Positions 1,101 to 55,383 of a stretch of DNA of 64,000 bases are shown here, piece by piece. Source of the DNA: an uncultured Gammaproteobacteria bacterium (lineage in GTDB: Bacteria > Patescibacteriota > Microgenomatia > UBA10105 > UBA927); assembly GCA_964573695.1 (NCBI GenBank), contig CAZNKB010000002.1, forward strand, positions 44,302 through 108,301, given 5' to 3'. A program made the position numbers and the translations under genes. The notes below the pieces were generated by a model that saw only the letters and a program-made list of their open reading frames with translations, searched no databases and was not told the DNA's origin. How positions within the stretch are numbered: the stretch's first letter is position 1; each line of letters opens with the position of its first letter.

Positions 1101-1318
1101 GTATGCCTTTCTTCGCCCGAATAAGTAAAAAATAACCCCGCCAAGCGGGGTATATTTTTTCCCTACTCTAGGCAAATCATCCCGCCTCATTGGCGGACTC
1201 GTTGGGGCACCGCGGTCTCATTGACTCGGTTGCCGGGTGGATCATAAAGCGAGAGCTTTCCCCACCACTCTTGATTTATTAACTTGTCATCTACAGTACT
1301 CCTGTGCCTTACGTATTG

Positions 1319-2875: not shown

Positions 2876-3052
2876 ATCGTAAAACCATAATAAACCCGAA
2901 AATAATAGTCGTCAACTAGGTGTAAATATATCAAATAGTACGAAATTCAACCGAAACCTGGTCAGTTTGCACTTCTATCCGTTTGGAAGATATTTTCTTT
3001 TCGTCTGCCCGCTATTTGAGTTTTAATTAGTCCTATAGTATAATATCTGCTC

Positions 3053-3496
3053 ATGTCTGCATCACCCGAAGGCTATCTGTTACGGCCATATATCCCCAGC
3101 GACCGCAAACCACTCATGGATTTTTTCATGAACTTACAACGCGGGAACCGTGGCTGGTCGGAACATCTGATCCAGTGCGTCCTTACCCGAAATGTCCGAG
3201 TGCTGGTTGCAGAATGCGAAGCAGGGATTGTCGGTTATGGGGAAACCCACAGAAACAACTTCCGTTCGGTATATTTTCACCGCGCAGCAGTATTGAAAGA
3301 GCACCGTTTACAGGGAATATTCACCGCTATCCTCGAATCCGTAGTAAAGGATGCCGGCAGAGCAGAAATTACCGCCGAAGTAAGTCGGGATGCCAAACAT
3401 CTGCCTGCCATGAAGCGCGCGGGATTTGAAATAACGGACACGCTTTCCGGATACCGCTATCAGCTCGTCCGGCCACGCCAACGGTATTTTCGCTAA
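3053..3496 (+). CDS. GNAT-family N-acetyltransferase (147 aa)
   Basis: Acetyl-CoA-binding-like segment ...HRLQGIFTAILESVVKDAGRAEI.... TATAAT at 3036-3041, 11 nt before the ATG. Confidence 0.6.
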   Translation: MSASPEGYLLRPYIPSDRKPLMDFFMNLQRGNRGWSEHLIQCVLTRNVRVLVAECEAGIVGYGETHRNNFRSVYFHRAAVLKEHRLQGIFTAILESVVKDAGRAEITAEVSRDAKHLPAMKRAGFEITDTLSGYRYQLVRPRQRYFR

Positions 3497-3701: not shown

Positions 3702-4925
3702 GTGTACGAGACTATGTATCAACACAACAACCGTTCATTTCGTCGTCCCAGGCCGTCTTTCGGCAATTCCCGTCCTGCTTTCGGCAGGAATCGGGCGATC
3801 AAAACGGTCCCAAAAAGCGTGATACTTGCTACCATTGCCCGGAGCCAGGACAATCACGCGGGAGACGCAGAAATCGCTCCCATGCCCGTCACACACCAGT
3901 TTACGGATTTTGGGCTGGATACCGCGCTTACCGATACCATTAAGGCAAAAGGATTTACGACTCCCACGCCCATTCAGGACATGGCGATTCCGGCAATCCT
4001 CTCCGGACGAGATATCATAGGGACCGCCAACACAGGAACGGGCAAAACCGCTGCATTTCTCATACCGCTATTGCAAAAAGTGACAAACGACCGGGCACAA
4101 CGGGTGCTCGTGGTGGCCCCCACCCGCGAACTCGCTGTCCAGATACACAAGGAACTCCGGGATTTCTCCCGCGGATTATCGATAAAAAGCGCCATGCTTA
4201 TCGGCGGAGCTAACGAATGGCGGCAGCGGGCAGACCTCAAACTCGACCCGCATTTCGTGATAGCCACTCCGGGCCGACTCAAGGATTTTATCGAGTCCCG
4301 CTACATTCGGCTTTCGGCGTTTCGTAACGTCGTCTTGGACGAAGCGGACCGCATGGTGGACATAGGGTTTATCAACGACATCAAATACTTTATCTCTCTG
4401 CTGCCCAAAGAACGGCAGTCATTGTTTTTTTCTGCGACGATTTCCGGCAAAGTCGGCGAAATACTGACTGAGTTTGTCAAAGATCCGGTGCGGGTTTCCG
4501 TCAAGACAGAAGATGTCGCCACGACCATACGCCAGGAAGTCATCCGGGTACCCAATAGCAACGCCAAAATAGAAGCGCTTCACGACCTTTTGATTCAGAA
4601 GGAATTCGGCAAAGTGCTCATCTTCGGCCGCACCAAATGGGGAGTGCAGCGCCTGTCCGATGAATTGGTAAAACGCGGATTCCGTTCGGGGGCCATACAC
4701 GGCAACAAACGCCAAAATCAACGCCAATATGTGCTGGAGCAATTTAAGCGGAGCGAAATCCAGATTTTGCTCGCTACCGATGTCGCCAGCCGAGGACTAG
4801 ACATCCCGGACGTTTCCCATGTCATAAACTATGACTTACCGGAAACGCTCGATGACTACATTCATCGTATCGGACGCACTGGCAGGGCCAACAAACGCGG
4901 CATCGCGCTCACCTTCGTAGACTAA
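3702..4925 (+). CDS. DEAD-box ATP-dependent RNA helicase
   Basis: Q-motif/TPIQ, GTGKTAAF (motif I), VLDEADRM (DEAD), SAT, HRIGRTGRA motifs. About 200 nt AT-rich untranslated leader upstream. Confidence 0.9.
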   Translation: MYETMYQHNNRSFRRPRPSFGNSRPAFGRNRAIKTVPKSVILATIARSQDNHAGDAEIAPMPVTHQFTDFGLDTALTDTIKAKGFTTPTPIQDMAIPAILSGRDIIGTANTGTGKTAAFLIPLLQKVTNDRAQRVLVVAPTRELAVQIHKELRDFSRGLSIKSAMLIGGANEWRQRADLKLDPHFVIATPGRLKDFIESRYIRLSAFRNVVLDEADRMVDIGFINDIKYFISLLPKERQSLFFSATISGKVGEILTEFVKDPVRVSVKTEDVATTIRQEVIRVPNSNAKIEALHDLLIQKEFGKVLIFGRTKWGVQRLSDELVKRGFRSGAIHGNKRQNQRQYVLEQFKRSEIQILLATDVASRGLDIPDVSHVINYDLPETLDDYIHRIGRTGRANKRGIALTFVD

Positions 4926-4966
4926 TCCTTTCCCCTTGAGACACTGTTATAATTGGCTTACCCTAT

Positions 4967-27003: not shown

Positions 27004-27048
27004 ACGGGCCTGTAGCTGAACCCCGATAAGATCGGGGCAGGCGGTAGA
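27004..27048 (+). repeat. Duplicate of tRNA-Lys positions 1-26, interrupted in the D-loop by a 21-nt perfect hairpin (CCCCGATaagATCGGGG)
   Basis: ACGGGCCTGTAGCTGAA[CCCCGATAAGATCGGGGCAGG]CGGTAGAGCAG compared with tRNA-Lys ACGGGCCTGTAGCTCAA-CGGTAGAGCAG, 28/29 identities outside the insert. Confidence 0.6.
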
Positions 27049-27058
27049 GCAGGACAAT

Positions 27059-27316
27059 ATGGCTTGGGTATATATCCTACGTAATACGATAACTAATCGT
27101 TATTATGTTGGATCAACTATTGACCTAAAGAGAAGACTAAAACAGCATAAAAGCGGCAATACGAGAACAACAAAAATATTAGGAACAAAGGACTTGGTTT
27201 ATACGGAAGAATACGCAACGGAAATTGAAGCGAGGAGCAGAGAAAAACAAATAAAGTCGTATAAAAGTAAAGCGTATATAGAAAATTTAATACACGGGCC
27301 TGTAGCTCAACGGTAG
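27059..27316 (+). CDS. Mini GIY-YIG nuclease-domain protein (YhbQ/YazA UPF0213-like), 85 aa. The stop codon is U8-A9-G10 of tRNA-Lys.
   Basis: WVYILRN...YYVGSTIDLKRRLKQHKSG matches GIY...YIG plus the R/H catalytic core. AGGA SD. The last 7 codons are encoded by the tRNA 5' end. AT-rich relative to flanks. Confidence 0.8.
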   Translation: MAWVYILRNTITNRYYVGSTIDLKRRLKQHKSGNTRTTKILGTKDLVYTEEYATEIEARSREKQIKSYKSKAYIENLIHGPVAQR

Positions 27317-27367
27317 AGCAGTAGCCTTTTAAGCTATTGGTTCTGGGTTCGAATCCCAGCGGGCTCA
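27296..27367 (+). tRNA. tRNA-Lys (anticodon TTT)
   Basis: GGGCCTGTAGCTCAACGGTAGAGCAGTAGCCTTTTAAGCTATTGGTTCTGGGTTCGAATCCCAGCGGGCTCA. Canonical D/T arms, anticodon loop CUUUUAA. Confidence 0.85.
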
Positions 27368-27448
27368 CAATTTTGGAAATCGAAACATGGTTGAGGTGAT
27401 AGCTGAATGCTAATGCCATGAGGGCCTAGTCCATTATCACGAATATCT

Positions 27449-53434: not shown

Positions 53435-53980
53435 ATGGTAGAACAACTCAAAAAGAAATTAAGCAATCCAGATTCTTTGGTTTCACTCTTTTTAGGCATT
53501 GCTGTCGTTGCAGTTATCGTCGTCATGATTTTTAACTACATCAAAGAGAAAAAGGCGACCGACAACACGCAAGCAGACGCAAAGACAGAGCAAAATGCTA
53601 CCGCCTCGGCCACAGCCACGACGCATACCGTCGCAGTTGGAGACACACTTTGGAGTATAGCAACAGCAAAAATAGGCAGTGGGTACAACTGGGTCGATAT
53701 CAGAGACGCAAACAAACTTACAAATGCCGACCGGATAGAAGTCGGACAACAGTTGATAATTCCGGCCGTAGCCAAACGTGAGCCAGGACAAATAGAGGCA
53801 GCGACAGTCGAAGTCAAACGTCCGGCAGACGGAAAATATACAGTCGTCAAAGGCGATACGTTATGGAAAATCGCCACGGCAGTATATGGCACCGGTTTCC
53901 GCTGGTCAGAAATCGCCAAGGCAAATAATTTATCGAATCCGAATCTGATCTTTAGCGGCAACGTCCTGACGCTGCCCTAA
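53435..53980 (+). CDS. LysM-domain protein (TM anchor plus 2 LysM repeats)
   Basis: Two HTV(A/V)xGDTLWxIA...NxxxI..GQxLxIP LysM repeats. Confidence 0.85.
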   Translation: MVEQLKKKLSNPDSLVSLFLGIAVVAVIVVMIFNYIKEKKATDNTQADAKTEQNATASATATTHTVAVGDTLWSIATAKIGSGYNWVDIRDANKLTNADRIEVGQQLIIPAVAKREPGQIEAATVEVKRPADGKYTVVKGDTLWKIATAVYGTGFRWSEIAKANNLSNPNLIFSGNVLTLP

Positions 53981-54035
53981 AAGTGTTTTTTTGATACACT
54001 GGAAAAAGGGAATCCTACACATGGGAATCCCTTGT

Positions 54036-54085
54036 CGCGGGATTAGTCGCCTCTTCGGCGACCCGCCGATGAGGCGGGTACACTC
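54036..54085 (+). repeat. Scrambled duplicate of the tRNA-Gly 5' end interrupted by two hairpins
   Basis: GTCGCGGGATTAGT (compare tRNA GTGCGGGCGTAGT), then hairpins GTCGCCtcttcGGCGAC and CCCGCCgatgaGGCGGG, then GTACACTCA (compare tRNA D-arm GTACACTGG). A further TACACTGG copy lies at 53995-54002. Confidence 0.45.
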
Positions 54086-54087
54086 AT

Positions 54088-54354
54088 ATGTATTATGTTT
54101 ACGTATTGGTAAGCAAGATAAATAAGAGTAAATACATAGGCTCAACAAGTAATCTTAAACAACGAATCAGTGATCATAACGAAAAACAAGGGGGCACGTA
54201 TACCAAAAAATATGCCCCCTTTGATTTAGTTTTCTATGAGGCCTATCTTGCAAAGAAAGATGCGATGAAACAAGAATTATTTTATAAGAGCGGGTACGGA
54301 CGAGAAGTATTACATGGTAAAATTGAATGGAGTCTAAAGTTAGTGCGGGCGTAG
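54088..54354 (+). CDS. Mini GIY-YIG nuclease-domain protein (YhbQ/UPF0213-like), 88 aa, paralogue of 27059-27316. The stop codon is U8-A9-G10 of tRNA-Gly.
   Basis: YYVYVLVSKINKSKYIGSTSNLKQRISDHNEKQGG.... The last 3 codons plus TAG are encoded by tRNA-Gly positions 1-10. AT-rich. Confidence 0.8.
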   Translation: MYYVYVLVSKINKSKYIGSTSNLKQRISDHNEKQGGTYTKKYAPFDLVFYEAYLAKKDAMKQELFYKSGYGREVLHGKIEWSLKLVRA

Positions 54355-54415
54355 TACACTGGTAGTATATATCCTTCCCAAGGATAGGAAGAGGGTTCGA
54401 TTCCCTTCGCCCGCT
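54345..54415 (+). tRNA. tRNA-Gly (anticodon CCC)
   Basis: GCGGGCGTAGTACACTGGTAGTATATATCCTTCCCAAGGATAGGAAGAGGGTTCGATTCCCTTCGCCCGCT. Confidence 0.85.
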
Positions 54416-54420
54416 CAAAT

Positions 54421-55383
54421 TTGCTACACTGGTTCTCTATGCTCCAGCATATCCTACTTTATATCGTATCGTTTGTCGGTATATGGATAGGGGCGGGACT
54501 TGCGATATCGTCAGTCGTTAAACTCTCGCACCGACTTCGATTATCTTCTTTTATCGTTTCATTTCTCATCCTTGGCTTTTTTACGTCTATCAGCGAATTT
54601 TCGGTAGGCATCAATGCGGTTCTCGATAACGACCCCGAAATATTTGTCGGCAATTTAATCGGGGCTTCAATCGTACTTTTTATGTTGGTTATACCTCTGC
54701 TCGCTATCACAGGGAAACAAATCCGAATAAGTAAAGAACTGCAGGGCGTCAATCTTGTATTACCCCTTATCGTCGTAGCCGTTCCCGTACTCTTATCACT
54801 GGACGGTTCCGTAAACCGGATAGATGCGGCAATATCACTCATTCTATACGGTATTTCCGCGTTCATTATCGAACAAAAACGCGGATTCACCAGCAATCCA
54901 GCACTATTTAAACAATTTGCGAAGGCAAAAGTCAGTGTTGAGTTTGGAAAAATAATTGCCGGCGTTGCCGTAATTTTCGCTTCCAGTCATTTGGTGGTTA
55001 CAGAAACTCTCTATTTTTCCGAATACTTCGGACTCTCGCCATTTCTTATCAGCTTACTTCTTGTAGCTATTGGCACCAACCTGCCGGAACTGTCGTTTAT
55101 CGTCCGGTCATTGTTTATGAAAAGCAACCAAGTGGCATTCGGGGATTATCTGGGATCTGCTGCATTCAATACGTTTCTGTACGGATTTCTAACACTATGT
55201 TTTGGGAGGACAATCCTGCTTACCAACAACTATGTCGTGAGTCTTACGTTTCTTATTGTCGGGCTTGTACTATTTTATATATTCGCCCGCAGTAAACACA
55301 CGATCTCCAAAAGCGAAGCGGCGGGATTATTTGCTATCTACGTCCTTTTCCTATTCACCGAATACTATCTGCACAAAGGCTAA
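54421..55383 (+). CDS. Na+/Ca2+-exchanger (CaCA/YrbG-like) membrane protein
   Basis: Two alpha-repeat regions with ...IGTNLPELSF... (GTSLPE-type) motif. About 10 TM helices. Probable start at M7 (54439). Confidence 0.85.
   Translation: MLHWFSMLQHILLYIVSFVGIWIGAGLAISSVVKLSHRLRLSSFIVSFLILGFFTSISEFSVGINAVLDNDPEIFVGNLIGASIVLFMLVIPLLAITGKQIRISKELQGVNLVLPLIVVAVPVLLSLDGSVNRIDAAISLILYGISAFIIEQKRGFTSNPALFKQFAKAKVSVEFGKIIAGVAVIFASSHLVVTETLYFSEYFGLSPFLISLLLVAIGTNLPELSFIVRSLFMKSNQVAFGDYLGSAAFNTFLYGFLTLCFGRTILLTNNYVVSLTFLIVGLVLFYIFARSKHTISKSEAAGLFAIYVLFLFTEYYLHKG

What the first reader, a model, noticed from the sequence alone, without database searches (positions are those of the whole stretch)
53985..54415. 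Second, paralogous GIY-YIG/tRNA unit at tRNA-Gly shows the architecture is recurrent
An 88-aa paralogue of the first GIY-YIG ORF again terminates on the TAG formed by U8-A9-G10 of the downstream tRNA, here tRNA-Gly(CCC). It is again preceded by fragments of that tRNA's 5' end (GTCGCGGGATTAGT…GTACACTCA, plus TACACTGG further upstream), interrupted by two short hairpins. Two independent tRNAs with the same ORF-in-frame-to-tRNA fusion, the same broken-5'-copy-with-hairpin arrangement and the same AT-rich composition point to a family of small tRNA-5'-targeting GIY-YIG cassettes. Alternatively they point to a conserved co-transcription design, rather than coincidence. In-frame termination at tRNA position 8-10 twice has a chance of about 1 in 9.
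Basis: partly seen in the sequence, partly recalled or inferred. Interest (0 to 1): 0.65.

Follow-up and report, generated by a model that had tools for sequence, protein, structure and literature searches.

The report
Selfish nuclease cassette invading tRNA genes
A ~300-base insert carrying a tiny nuclease gene and a conserved double hairpin sits in the front end of a glycine tRNA gene, which is rebuilt intact behind it; the same design recurs at many tRNA genes in hundreds of ultra-small (CPR) bacterial species and I found no description of it.

Summary
An 88-aa GIY-YIG ORF (54088-54354) runs into tRNA-Gly(CCC) (54345-54416) and stops on U8-A9-G10. Upstream lies a broken copy of the tRNA 5' end (nt 1-10, then nt 11-16), split by a 32-nt GC-rich twin hairpin.

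Two details are wrong. The tRNA-Lys unit stops at tRNA positions 19-21, not 8-10. The upstream TACACTGG is native flank, not tRNA debris.

Comparative data turn this into a family:
- In 58 of 80 CPR genome loci, relatives of this ORF abut or overlap a same-strand tRNA (Gln, Ser, Gly, Pro, Ile).
- 59 of 80 carry the same twin hairpin inside a displaced tRNA 5' copy.
- Syntenic relatives (L151, L086) have the same tRNA-Gly with no cassette, so this is an insertion.
- The hairpin shows covariation, has no Rfam family, and occurs only with this ORF type.
- The protein is an intact minimal GIY-YIG domain of the Slx1/UPF0213 lineage, under purifying selection.

Best reading: a selfish, homing-type cassette that invades tRNA genes and regenerates them, resembling fungal mitochondrial mobile ORFs. 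The mobility mechanism, the hairpin's role and the immunity of filled alleles remain inferred. I rate it a new variant of a known kind, apparently undescribed.

The parts
53981..54036 (+). Native 5' flank of tRNA-Gly (presumably holding the promoter), including TACACTGG at 53996. Not part of the insert.
   Evidence: Collinear with the cassette-free syntenic locus L151, where the same flank ('gggaatcctacacatgggaatccctt..') runs straight into tRNA nt 1. Also conserved in L003 and L159.
54037..54046 (+). Displaced pseudo-copy of tRNA-Gly nt 1-10 (GCGGGATTAG). It differs at nt 6-7 from the functional tRNA (GCGGGCGTAG) and equals the allele of L004, L028 and L043.
   Evidence: Relatives L003 and L159 have GCGGGCGTAG at this position. 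The BLAST alignment to the empty locus L151 ends at 54047.
54047..54078 (+). 32-nt GC-rich twin hairpin (TCGCC-TCTTC-GGCGA C CCGCC-GATGA-GGCGG G), inserted exactly between tRNA nt 10 and 11 of the pseudo-copy. It is palindromic as a whole.
   Evidence: Covariance model R1 scores 59.9 bits, E 6.5e-14, and this is the only strong hit in the window. The motif is present upstream of the ORF in 59/80 family loci. Covariation is shown. No Rfam family matches.
54079..54084 (+). Relic of tRNA-Gly nt 11-16 (TACACT), continuing the pseudo-copy after the hairpins.
   Evidence: The relic is longer in relatives: TACACTGGTA in L159 and TACACTGGTAGTA in L139.
54088..54354 (+). GIY-YIG nuclease gene, 88 aa, a minimal single domain of the Slx1/UPF0213 lineage. 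Its last 10 nt are tRNA nt 1-10, and the stop is U8-A9-G10.
   Evidence: Pfam PF01541, E 9e-19. PDB sequence hits: UPF0213 1ZG2 (E 7e-12), 1YWL, then SLX1. AF2 pLDDT 93.9, and Foldseek places Slx1 at TMq 0.61-0.68, above I-TevI and UvrC. dN is 0.14 with dS saturated against L004.
54345..54416 (+). Functional tRNA-Gly(CCC), regenerated intact downstream of the cassette.
   Evidence: ARAGORN. Rfam tRNA 60.4 bits. Identical sequence in cassette-free loci L109 and L151.
27006..27368 (+). Second cassette of a different subfamily at tRNA-Lys(TTT): pseudo nt 1-12 (27006-27017), single hairpin CCCCGAT-AAG-ATCGGGG (27021-27037), pseudo nt 16-26 (27042-27052), 85-aa GIY-YIG ORF (27059-27316, stop at tRNA nt 19-21), tRNA-Lys (27296-27368).
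   Evidence: Relatives of this ORF abut tRNA-Gly and tRNA-Asn in other CPR contigs.

Best explanation
The region is a roughly 300-bp selfish cassette inserted into the 5' part of the tRNA-Gly(CCC) gene of a CPR (Patescibacteria) bacterium.

Anatomy (shown): native flank; displaced tRNA nt 1-10; 32-nt twin hairpin; tRNA nt 11-16 relic; minimal Slx1/UPF0213-type GIY-YIG nuclease gene; then a complete tRNA whose first 10 nt double as the ORF's last codons and stop.

Also shown:
- It is an insertion relative to cassette-free orthologous sites.
- The same design, with a subfamily-specific hairpin module, occupies Gln, Ser, Gly, Pro, Ile, Lys and Asn tRNA 5' ends. Mirror-image versions occupy tRNA 3' ends.
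- Cassettes can stack.
- The ORF is kept by purifying selection.

How it most likely works (inferred): it behaves like a free-standing homing-endonuclease gene, or mobile ORF, that carries a replacement for the piece of the target gene it displaces.
1. The nuclease breaks a cassette-free tRNA allele in its 5' half.
2. The break is repaired from a cassette-bearing allele. The left end pairs with the pseudo-copy and native flank; the right end pairs with the tRNA.
3. The cassette is copied in, the tRNA stays functional, and the old 5' piece is left behind, interrupted by the hairpin module.

The cassette has only 9 nt between the hairpins and the ATG, so it is probably transcribed from the tRNA's own upstream promoter with the tRNA. 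RNase P cleavage at tRNA +1 would then remove the ORF's stop codon, which may keep nuclease levels low.

The twin hairpin is a cis element of the cassette. Candidate roles, none tested, are splitting the target in the leftover copy or serving as a branched or cruciform substrate for an Slx1-like enzyme.
For: - Recurrence. 406 tblastn-confirmed loci were found in species-representative genomes, and the kept loci whose records name a lineage are CPR/Patescibacteria (one Omnitrophota; several carry generic MAG labels). In 58/80 a same-strand tRNA starts within 45 nt of the stop, against about 1% expected.
- Displaced copy. An exact copy of tRNA nt 1-21 (Gln, Pro), 1-13 (Ser) or 1-10 (Gly, Ile) lies 40-100 nt upstream of the ATG, z up to 16.
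- Empty sites. Of 76 metagenome loci with this tRNA-Gly, 59 have no GIY ORF upstream, 10 are filled and 7 are too short. L151 and L086 are syntenic with the window (74-76% nt upstream of the tRNA, 75-82% downstream) and cassette-free. L003, L159, L004 and L145 are filled.
- Hairpin module. It is conserved with compensatory changes: 39 both-side changes against 8.7 +/- 2.2 in shuffles; the sixth pair, which my filter did not require, is paired in 46/46 and 44/46 cores. It is strictly linked to the type-1 ORF: in 392 kb of unselected CPR sequence it occurs only in the two loci that have that ORF. The other subfamily has a different hairpin that replaces the anticodon arm.
- Different alleles. 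In about a third of Gln/Pro loci, and in the window, the pseudo-copy carries a different genuine tRNA acceptor-stem allele from the functional tRNA. Fungal mORFs show the same foreign-versus-native pattern for gene termini (PMC3630166).
- Stacked and serial cassettes occur in L160-L162, L078 and L046.
- Protein. GIY and YIG motifs are present, and Y5, Y16, G18, R26, H30 and E63 are invariant. The fold is confident. dN is far below dS.
Against: - No cleavage data exist.
- The protein is only the 88-aa catalytic domain of the Slx1 lineage. It lacks the DNA-binding domains that give I-TevI or Seg enzymes their site specificity.
- The filled allele retains an intact tRNA, so a purely tRNA-internal target would still be present. 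Immunity of the filled allele is unexplained.
- I found no near-identical cassettes in divergent genomes. dS is saturated between the window and L004, and within the window's clade the cassette is collinear with its flanks (L003 74%, L159 81%). Recent transfer is therefore not demonstrated, and part of the patchiness could be loss.
- The cassette is not found in viral contigs.
- The exactness of the pre-hairpin copy (86% identity, 16/31 exact) against the decayed post-hairpin relic (52%, 1/31 exact) fits homing but also fits other models.
Confidence: 0.6

Rival explanations
1. Recombinase- or host-mediated integration. The cassette circularises or enters as foreign DNA and integrates Campbell-style, by recombination between its own tRNA-fragment 'att' site (the pseudo-copy with hairpins) and the chromosomal tRNA. 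The GIY-YIG protein is a passenger or accessory, not the engine.
For: The final structure is formally what single-crossover integration gives: direct repeats of a tRNA end flanking the insert, 5' or 3' versions, and a 13-nt 3'-end repeat in L066. The palindromic hairpin module resembles a recombination or binding site. tRNA genes are classic integration targets (established knowledge).
Against: The 300-bp unit contains no integrase or recombinase gene, and the GIY-YIG ORF is the only ORF. GIY-YIG enzymes are hydrolytic nucleases, not recombinases (established knowledge). The ORF is under strong purifying selection and co-varies with the hairpin type. The cassette was not found on viral contigs.
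Confidence: 0.12
2. Domesticated or host-serving tRNA-linked function. The small nuclease is co-transcribed with the tRNA because it acts in tRNA or RNA metabolism, or in protecting or repairing heavily transcribed tRNA genes. The pseudo-tRNA-plus-hairpin leader is then a regulatory or processing element.
For: The ORF is long-lived and under purifying selection. In the window's clade it is inherited collinearly with its flanks. It is obligatorily downstream of the native tRNA upstream region. A prokaryotic Slx1-like domain fused to the tRNA Gm18 methyltransferase TrmH has been reported, and that paper took it to suggest an RNA role (PMC1564403).
Against: Most orthologous tRNA-Gly genes lack it: 59 of 69 informative loci. 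Close syntenic relatives do without it. It sits at many different tRNAs, on either end, in stacks and as ORF-less remnants. L003 carries a nonsense codon. The composition is AT-rich compared with the host.
Confidence: 0.12
3. Nucleic-acid-directed targeting. The leader (tRNA nt 1-x fused to the twin-hairpin scaffold), as RNA or as extruded cruciform DNA, supplies the target specificity that the 88-aa domain lacks. It would direct the Slx1-like nuclease to the matching tRNA gene, and a new tRNA fragment would retarget the cassette.
For: - The protein has no DNA-binding domain, and its nearest characterised relatives are structure-specific nucleases.
- The only tRNA-specific information in the cassette is the pre-hairpin copy. 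It is kept far better than the post-hairpin relic: 16/31 exact against 1/31.
- Hairpin type co-varies with nuclease subfamily.
- In the window and about a third of loci the copy matches a different allele from the linked functional tRNA. That would give self-immunity.
Against: No GIY-YIG nuclease is known to be guided this way (my own knowledge). In half of the loci the copy equals the linked tRNA, which would be self-targeting. G-T and A-C mismatches are equally rare in the stems, so nothing points to an RNA-strand-specific structure. The hairpin lies downstream of the ORF in mirror versions. Co-inheritance alone explains the co-variation.
Confidence: 0.06
4. Coincidence or annotation artefact: an ordinary small ORF that happens to lie upstream of a tRNA, with chance similarity in the spacer.
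For: Taken alone, the window's upstream match to its own tRNA is not significant (z 0.7, 25/100 shuffles).
Against: 58/80 loci share the arrangement against about 1% expected. Relatives carry exact 21-nt copies. The hairpin motif scores E 6.5e-14. Empty and filled orthologous sites both exist.
Confidence: 0.01

Closest known systems
Mobile ORFs (mORFs) of fungal mitochondria that carry a replacement gene terminus (Allomyces atp6; Glomus atp6, atp9, cox2, nad3)
   Same: A free-standing endonuclease ORF (LAGLIDADG or GIY-YIG) is inserted in a gene together with a copy of the gene part it displaces. A functional hybrid gene results, and a displaced native fragment lies on the far side of the ORF. 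The displaced and functional parts are often different alleles, and the ORF can be in phase with the gene (PMC3630166).
   Different: Here the target is a tRNA gene on a bacterial chromosome, and the replaced part is 10-57 nt at either end. The nuclease is an 88-aa Slx1/UPF0213-type domain rather than a multi-domain homing enzyme. A conserved hairpin module always interrupts the displaced copy.
Phage T4 SegB (free-standing GIY-YIG homing endonuclease in the tRNA gene cluster)
   Same: A GIY-YIG gene sits among tRNA genes. It cleaves the tRNA gene region of a related genome and drives preferential inheritance of its own tRNA region without an intron (PMC2330249).
   Different: SegB belongs to a phage, not a bacterial chromosome. 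By my own knowledge it is a larger multi-domain protein (not checked in PMC2330249). I know of no partial tRNA duplication, hairpin module or overlap with a tRNA for SegB (not checked in that paper). No relatives of the present ORF were found in viral contigs.
GIY-YIG-encoding non-intron insertion sequences in rRNA genes of CPR bacteria
   Same: The same group of organisms is involved. GIY-YIG ORFs lie in insertions within structural RNA genes, and these insertions are neither group I nor group II introns (PMC11270868).
   Different: Those insertions lie inside rRNA genes. That paper does not mention tRNA genes, duplicated gene ends or a twin hairpin, and I did not test relatedness of the proteins.
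Prokaryotic stand-alone Slx1-like / UPF0213 (YhbQ) proteins
   Same: These are the closest sequence and fold relatives: 1ZG2 and 1YWL, then the Slx1 nuclease domain. They are described as the minimal GIY-YIG domain without auxiliary domains (PMC1564403).
   Different: The function of UPF0213 proteins is unknown, and I found no reported link to tRNA-gene insertion. Eukaryotic Slx1 needs Slx4 and cuts branched DNA.
Integrase-borne genomic islands and prophages inserted in tRNA genes
   Same: The target is a tRNA gene, the gene is regenerated by an element-borne copy of the displaced part, and direct repeats of tRNA sequence flank the insert (established knowledge).
   Different: Those elements are kilobases long, encode a tyrosine or serine recombinase, and typically regenerate the 3' part of the tRNA gene. 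This cassette is 300 bp, has no recombinase and mostly targets the 5' end.
[quoted passage not shown]
   Same: The same organisms and the same class of target gene. Some of these introns carry homing endonuclease genes (PMC13011429).
   Different: Those are ribozyme introns in the anticodon loop (position 35/36), with HNH enzymes where an endonuclease is present, and no duplication of tRNA parts. Here there is no Rfam intron hit, a complete uninterrupted tRNA follows, and nothing needs splicing.
GC-rich palindromic clusters of yeast mitochondria and double-hairpin elements of Allomyces mitochondria (recalled from memory; not found in the searchable library)
   Same: These are short GC-rich hairpin or double-hairpin modules in AT-rich genomes. 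They are inserted at preferred short sites, sometimes nested or in arrays, and are reported near mobile endonuclease ORFs.
   Different: No sequence relation was tested. This is a lead only.

Membership tests
GIY-YIG nuclease superfamily (Pfam PF01541) | Significant match to the domain model across its full length | tested here: met
   E 9.1e-19, 68 bits against a cut-off of 22.6, model positions 1-73 of 78.
GIY-YIG nuclease superfamily (Pfam PF01541) | Conserved motif and catalytic residues (GIY-type Tyr, YIG Tyr-x-Gly, Arg, His/Tyr, Glu) | tested here: met
   Y5, Y16, G18, R26, H30 and E63 are invariant in 25 family members.
GIY-YIG nuclease superfamily (Pfam PF01541) | Three-stranded sheet flanked by helices (GIY-YIG fold) | tested here: met
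   AF2 pLDDT 93.9, with element order E-E-H-H-E-H-H-H. Foldseek hits are 1ZG2, Slx1, I-TevI and UvrC.
Slx1 / UPF0213 (YhbQ) lineage, stand-alone minimal domain | Closer to UPF0213 and Slx1 than to the UvrC / homing-endonuclease lineage, with no auxiliary domain | tested here: met
   PDB profile search: 1ZG2 E 7e-12, 1YWL 2.7e-10, SLX1 7e-6, and no I-TevI or UvrC hit at E<=0.01. Fold search: Slx1 TMq 0.61-0.68 against I-TevI and UvrC 0.40-0.53. The 88 aa consist of the domain only.
Free-standing homing endonuclease gene / mobile ORF with replaced gene terminus | Presence/absence polymorphism at the same site in related genomes | tested here: met
   L151 and L086 are empty; the window, L003, L159, L004 and L145 are filled, all in the same synteny. 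Overall, 59 loci are empty and 10 filled.
Free-standing homing endonuclease gene / mobile ORF with replaced gene terminus | Partial duplication of the target gene: a functional copy beside the ORF and a displaced fragment beyond it | tested here: met
   In the window the displaced fragment is 54037-54046 plus 54079-54084.
Free-standing homing endonuclease gene / mobile ORF with replaced gene terminus | The encoded enzyme cleaves the ORF-less allele site-specifically and the ORF-bearing allele is immune | not testable with these tools
   This needs biochemistry. On sequence logic, immunity is unexplained because the intact tRNA persists in the filled allele.
Free-standing homing endonuclease gene / mobile ORF with replaced gene terminus | Nuclease domain joined to a DNA-binding module that gives a long recognition site (as in I-TevI and Seg enzymes) | tested here: not met
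   Only the catalytic domain is present. NCBIfam 'group I intron endonuclease' is matched at 24 bits against a cut-off of 56, covering model positions 4-75 of 215, i.e. the catalytic domain only.
Integrase-type tRNA-inserted genomic element | Encodes a tyrosine or serine recombinase | tested here: not met
   The only ORF in the insert is the GIY-YIG gene.
Group I (or II) intron in a tRNA gene | Ribozyme core detectable, and the tRNA split into two exons that need splicing | tested here: not met
   No Rfam intron family matches, even at E<=10, in 53900-54450. A complete tRNA lies at 54345-54416.
Known structured RNA or DNA motif (Rfam 15) for the twin hairpin | Match to a curated covariance model | tested here: not met
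   Nothing overlaps the whole of 54047-54078. The only overlap is a 19-nt hit to one hairpin (RF00624 P9, 54061-54079) at 14.4 bits against a gathering score of 43.

The most novel reading that the evidence does not exclude
The displaced tRNA fragment fused to the subfamily-specific hairpin module is a specificity module, not debris. As leader RNA or as extruded branched DNA, it would tell a minimal 88-aa Slx1-like GIY-YIG nuclease which tRNA gene to attack. Capturing a new tRNA fragment would then retarget the cassette. Cassettes whose fragment differs from the linked tRNA allele, as in this window, would attack rival alleles while sparing their own.
Probability: 0.06. Interest if true: 0.92.

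Novelty: new variant of a known kind. Interest (0 to 1): 0.7.

Why it matters
- Unknown proteins. Stand-alone Slx1-like (UPF0213/YhbQ) GIY-YIG proteins are widespread and have no assigned function. Here one clade has a concrete, testable biology: cassettes that invade tRNA genes.
- CPR genome annotation. The finding explains a recurrent oddity of CPR genomes: many tiny 'GIY-YIG nuclease family protein' genes, pseudo-tRNA fragments and GC-rich hairpins around tRNA genes. These features can mislead tRNA and gene annotation.
- A compact mobile unit. A ~300-bp element (an 88-aa enzyme plus a 32-nt palindrome) inserts into essential genes without killing them. How a domain with no DNA-binding module finds one tRNA gene is an open question. 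The answer could be structure-specific or nucleic-acid-assisted targeting.
- tRNA allele exchange. Mismatches between displaced and functional tRNA alleles suggest that the cassettes drive exchange of tRNA alleles between lineages.

Tried and rejected
- Known RNA family or intron for the hairpins or insert. The Rfam gathering and E<=10 scans found only the tRNA.
- Promoter and terminator scan of 53900-54480. Nothing was found, not even a promoter for the tRNA, so the scan is uninformative for this organism.
- Upstream and downstream TACACTGG as tRNA debris or as direct repeats bounding a larger unit. Rejected: both are native flank, also present in the empty locus L151.
- Phage carriage. No relatives of the ORF and no twin-hairpin pattern were found in IMG/VR contigs.
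- Twin hairpin as a free-living MITE. Rejected: in 392 kb of CPR contigs chosen only for tRNA-Gly it occurs solely next to the type-1 ORF.
- RNA-strand-specific structure. G-T (10) and A-C (11) mismatches are equal, so there is no strand signal.
- One long hairpin. This is the MFE fold of the window copy (-28 kcal/mol, z -2.5). Covariation in relatives favours two separate hairpins instead.
- Within-population polymorphism. L160 (filled) and L151 (empty) come from the same sample, but their flanks are only 72-75% identical, so they are different species.
- Window pseudo-copy as a fossil of an older allele. This is weakened because the two closest relatives (L159, L003) have the CG form. The origin of the AT at nt 6-7 stays open.
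- The first, broader protein alignment A1 was too diverse for the locus search; A2 was used instead.
- Literature. Seven full-text searches found no description of GIY-YIG cassettes at tRNA genes in CPR. The library is limited to open-access papers.
Full report
**1. What is in the window**

The ORF 54088-54354 encodes 88 aa that match the GIY-YIG domain over its whole length (Pfam PF01541, E 9e-19). ARAGORN and Rfam place tRNA-Gly(CCC) at 54345-54416. The ORF therefore overlaps the tRNA by 10 nt, and its TAG (54352-54354) is tRNA U8-A9-G10.

Upstream, the sequence reads as follows:
- native flank;
- GCGGGATTAG (54037-54046);
- TCGCC-TCTTC-GGCGA-C-CCGCC-GATGA-GGCGG-G (54047-54078);
- TACACT (54079-54084);
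- CAT-ATG.

In other words, this is tRNA nt 1-10 (8 of 10 identical), a 32-nt pair of GC-rich hairpins, then tRNA nt 11-16. GC falls to 0.36-0.39 inside the ORF, against about 0.5 around it.

A second unit lies at tRNA-Lys(TTT). It consists of:
- pseudo nt 1-12 (27006-27017);
- one hairpin (27021-27037);
- pseudo nt 16-26 (27042-27052);
- an 85-aa GIY-YIG ORF (27059-27316), 36% identical to the first;
- the tRNA (27296-27368).

**2. It is a family**

The protein's relatives whose sources name an organism come from CPR/Patescibacteria. A pattern scan of one genome per species found 406 tblastn-confirmed loci, and I kept the best 80.

- In 58 of 80, a tRNA on the same strand begins within 45 nt of the stop (Gln 34, Ser 12, Gly 5, Pro 4, Ile 3). 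About 1% is expected even at the high tRNA density of these loci.
- Stops fall at tRNA nt 8-10 in 11 loci, nt 13-15 or 14-16 in 17, nt 21-23 in 1, and up to 31 nt upstream of the tRNA in 27 (one overlapping it by 1 nt). Two ORFs read through.
- Ending inside the tRNA is therefore a frequent result of tight packing against conserved T-A-G or T-A-A triplets of the D region. It is not a rule.

**3. The displaced tRNA copy and the twin hairpin**

In most loci an exact copy of the downstream tRNA's first 21 nt (Gln, Pro), 13 nt (Ser) or 10-11 nt (Gly, Ile) lies 40-100 nt upstream of the ATG, with z up to 16 against shuffles.

Directly after it comes the same 32-34-nt motif as in the window. After the motif, the tRNA sequence resumes for a few nucleotides.

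A covariance model built from 55 copies gave these results:
- It finds one strong hit in the window (54040-54084, 59.9 bits, E 6.5e-14).
- It finds a hit within 160 nt upstream of the ORF in 59 of 80 loci.
- In 18 of 80 loci there is a second copy just after the tRNA, followed there by a copy of tRNA nt 22-76 or of the T-loop-to-3'-end part.

The stems show compensatory changes:
- The sixth base pair of each hairpin, which my search filter did not require, is Watson-Crick or G-T in 46/46 and 44/46 distinct cores, with three pair types.
- The pair-count tool gives 39 both-side changes against 8.7 +/- 2.2 in shuffles, 0 of 500 reaching the observed value. The caveat is that five pairs per stem were preselected.

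As a whole the motif is a palindrome. Its two loops are TCNTC and GANGA, so it reads alike on both strands. G-T and A-C mismatches are equally rare. This leans towards a DNA-level element but proves nothing.

The minimum-energy fold of the window copy is one long hairpin. Variants such as CTGCC/GGCAG keep the two small hairpins and break the long one.

No Rfam family matches the motif.

**4. It is an insertion**

I scanned metagenomes for the tRNA-Gly(CCC) sequence itself and obtained 76 loci. Of these, 59 have no GIY-YIG ORF in the 700 nt upstream, 10 have one and 7 are too short to judge.

- L151 and L086 share the window's gene order (PolX/PHP gene, tRNA-Asp, LysM gene, tRNA-Gly). Flank identity is 74-76% nt upstream of the tRNA and 75-82% downstream. 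They have no cassette.
- In L151 the flank '...gggaatcctacacatgggaatcccttata' runs straight into GCGGGCGTAGTACACTGG.
- L003 (74% identity) and L159 (81%) have the cassette at the same place, with an exact GCGGGCGTAG copy before the hairpins.
- L004 and L145, with 65% identical flanks, have the cassette too.

In these 392 kb, chosen only for the tRNA, the twin hairpin occurs exactly twice. Both copies are in the only two loci that carry this ORF type.

**5. Variants**

- A second subfamily, to which the window's tRNA-Lys ORF is closest, also sits 5' of tRNA-Gly and tRNA-Asn. Its displaced copy is tRNA nt 1-26, then a single GC hairpin in place of the anticodon arm, then nt 44-57.
- Mirror-image forms exist. 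One is full tRNA, ORF, then a 3' tRNA fragment with the twin hairpin in its T-loop (L032, L061). Another is tRNA, hairpins, ORF, then a 13-nt repeat of the tRNA 3' end (L066, L079, L080).
- Three of 58 tRNA-Gly loci carry a GIY ORF on the 3' side.
- Cassettes pile up. In L160/L161 a type-1 ORF is followed by a type-2-style pseudo-tRNA and then the tRNA. L162 has the end of a type-2 ORF, a pseudo-copy with nested hairpins, a type-1 ORF, a second pseudo-copy with hairpins, and then the tRNA. L078 has three ORFs in a row, and L046 has an array of hairpin-bearing pseudo-tRNAs.
- Two type-1 cassettes (L017, L060) have no tRNA at all. Their hairpins again follow a TAG.

**6. Alleles**

In 31 Gln/Pro loci the pre-hairpin copy is 86% identical to the functional tRNA (16 exact). 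The ten nucleotides after the hairpins are 52% identical (1 exact).

Where the pre-hairpin copy differs, it differs in the acceptor stem. It then matches acceptor stems seen as functional tRNA-Gln genes in other genomes.

The window is such a case. Its copy GCGGGATTAG is the 5' end of the tRNA-Gly allele of L004, L028 and L043, while its functional tRNA is GCGGGCG...CGCCCGC. The displaced and functional parts thus often come from different tRNA alleles, as in fungal mobile ORFs (PMC3630166).

The direction of exchange is unresolved. The window's two closest relatives have the CG form in the copy.

**7. The protein**

- Residues Y5, Y16, G18, R26, H30 and E63 are invariant.
- The nearest solved relatives are the UPF0213 proteins 1ZG2 and 1YWL, then the SLX1 nuclease domain.
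- A confident model (pLDDT 93.9) superposes on Slx1 at about 2 A (TMq 0.61-0.68). It fits I-TevI and UvrC less well.
- The protein has no extra domain. NCBIfam and PHROGs give only weak sub-threshold homing-endonuclease hits to the catalytic domain.
- Against L004, dN is 0.14 while synonymous sites are saturated. Where omega can be computed it is 0.14-0.28.
- One close relative (L003) has a nonsense codon.

**8. Interpretation**

Shown:
- It is an insertion.
- The architecture recurs.
- A cassette-specific hairpin module is conserved.
- The nuclease gene is under selection.
- Several tRNA targets are used, at either end.
- Cassettes stack.
- Displaced and functional tRNA parts can be different alleles.

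Inferred: the nuclease breaks cassette-free tRNA genes, and repair copies the cassette in while regenerating the tRNA (a homing or mORF-like mechanism). The cassette would be transcribed from the tRNA's own upstream promoter, and RNase P would sever the stop codon from the mRNA when the stop lies inside the tRNA.

Open problems:
- How an 88-aa Slx1-like domain finds one tRNA gene.
- Why the intact tRNA of the filled allele is not a target.
- What the hairpins do.

Rivals are recombinase- or host-mediated integration, a domesticated tRNA-linked function (a TrmH fusion of a prokaryotic Slx1-like domain is on record, PMC1564403), and nucleic-acid-directed targeting.

**9. Novelty**

The concept has precedents: mobile endonuclease ORFs that bring a replacement gene segment (PMC3630166), T4 SegB among tRNA genes (PMC2330249), and GIY-YIG ORFs in non-intron insertions of CPR rRNA genes (PMC11270868).

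None of the seven full-text searches turned up the tRNA-gene cassettes, the twin hairpin or a role for UPF0213-type proteins. The paper on tRNA introns of Patescibacteria does not mention them.

I therefore class it as a new variant of a known kind that is widespread in CPR. The caveat is that only open-access literature could be searched.

Noticed in passing
window 27006-27368: The other GIY-YIG/tRNA unit (tRNA-Lys) belongs to a different subfamily. It has a different, single hairpin (CCCCGAT-AAG-ATCGGGG) inserted in the D-loop of the displaced copy. Its stop is at tRNA nt 19-21. Its relatives abut tRNA-Gly and tRNA-Asn elsewhere.
   Followed up: partly
window 54421-55383: The Na+/Ca2+ exchanger gene directly after tRNA-Gly is absent at this position in the syntenic relatives L003 and L086 but present in L151. 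Its GC (0.41-0.45) is below that of the surrounding genes (about 0.5). The 3' side of this tRNA is therefore also a variable spot.
   Followed up: partly
L151 (oriented) about 4885-4940, just after tRNA-Gly: The cassette-free relative has a 41-nt insert with a terminator-like hairpin (agaccccattcggggtct plus a T run). It is followed by a 14-nt repeat of the tRNA 3' end (CCCTTCGCCCGCTC), and then the native flank resumes. This is a miniature 3'-end insertion with target duplication.
   Followed up: no
many loci, e.g. L069 2934-2954, L037 about 1801-1814, L065 about 3016-3034 and 3224-3236: Exact copies of the last 10-21 nt of the tRNA lie 100-400 nt downstream of the tRNA in many CPR loci. This suggests frequent small insertions at tRNA 3' ends whose content I did not examine.
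   Followed up: no
L017 2451-2764; L060 2445-2764: Two type-1 cassettes (twin hairpin plus ORF) have no tRNA nearby. In L060 the hairpins follow ...GCGGTAG at the end of a glycine-rich coding region. These may be ectopic insertions at a TAG site.
   Followed up: no
L046 2779-3220: A tandem array of pseudo-tRNA-Gln units, each with the twin hairpin in the D-loop and a 100% identical copy of nt 21-74, lies downstream of the functional tRNA. The array is interrupted by an assembly gap.
   Followed up: partly
L028, L030, L042, L048, L029, L025, L036 (upstream of the ORF): Hairpin modules are doubled or nested within one displaced tRNA copy. Examples are one at nt 10|11 and another at 21|22 of tRNA-Gly, and a hairpin inserted in the loop of another. 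The module seems able to be added repeatedly.
   Followed up: no
window 1145-1282 (- strand): A SAM-I/IV riboswitch scores just above the Rfam gathering score (41.6 against 41.1 bits). A weak twin-hairpin model hit (16.9 bits) overlaps it and is probably chance.
   Followed up: no
L003, L004, L009 and other TPA MAG records: Several genome records holding these CPR-type loci are titled 'uncultured Gammaproteobacteria' or 'Bdellovibrionales'. Their gene content and closest relatives are Patescibacteria, so the labels look unreliable.
   Followed up: no
L003 2573-2575: In L003, the closest relative among the species-representative genomes (81% aa; the Logan contig L159 is closer, 83%), the GIY-YIG ORF has an in-frame TAA at codon 25 (CAA in the window). 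The record also has a run of N inside the twin hairpin. This is either a decaying copy or a sequencing problem.
   Followed up: no
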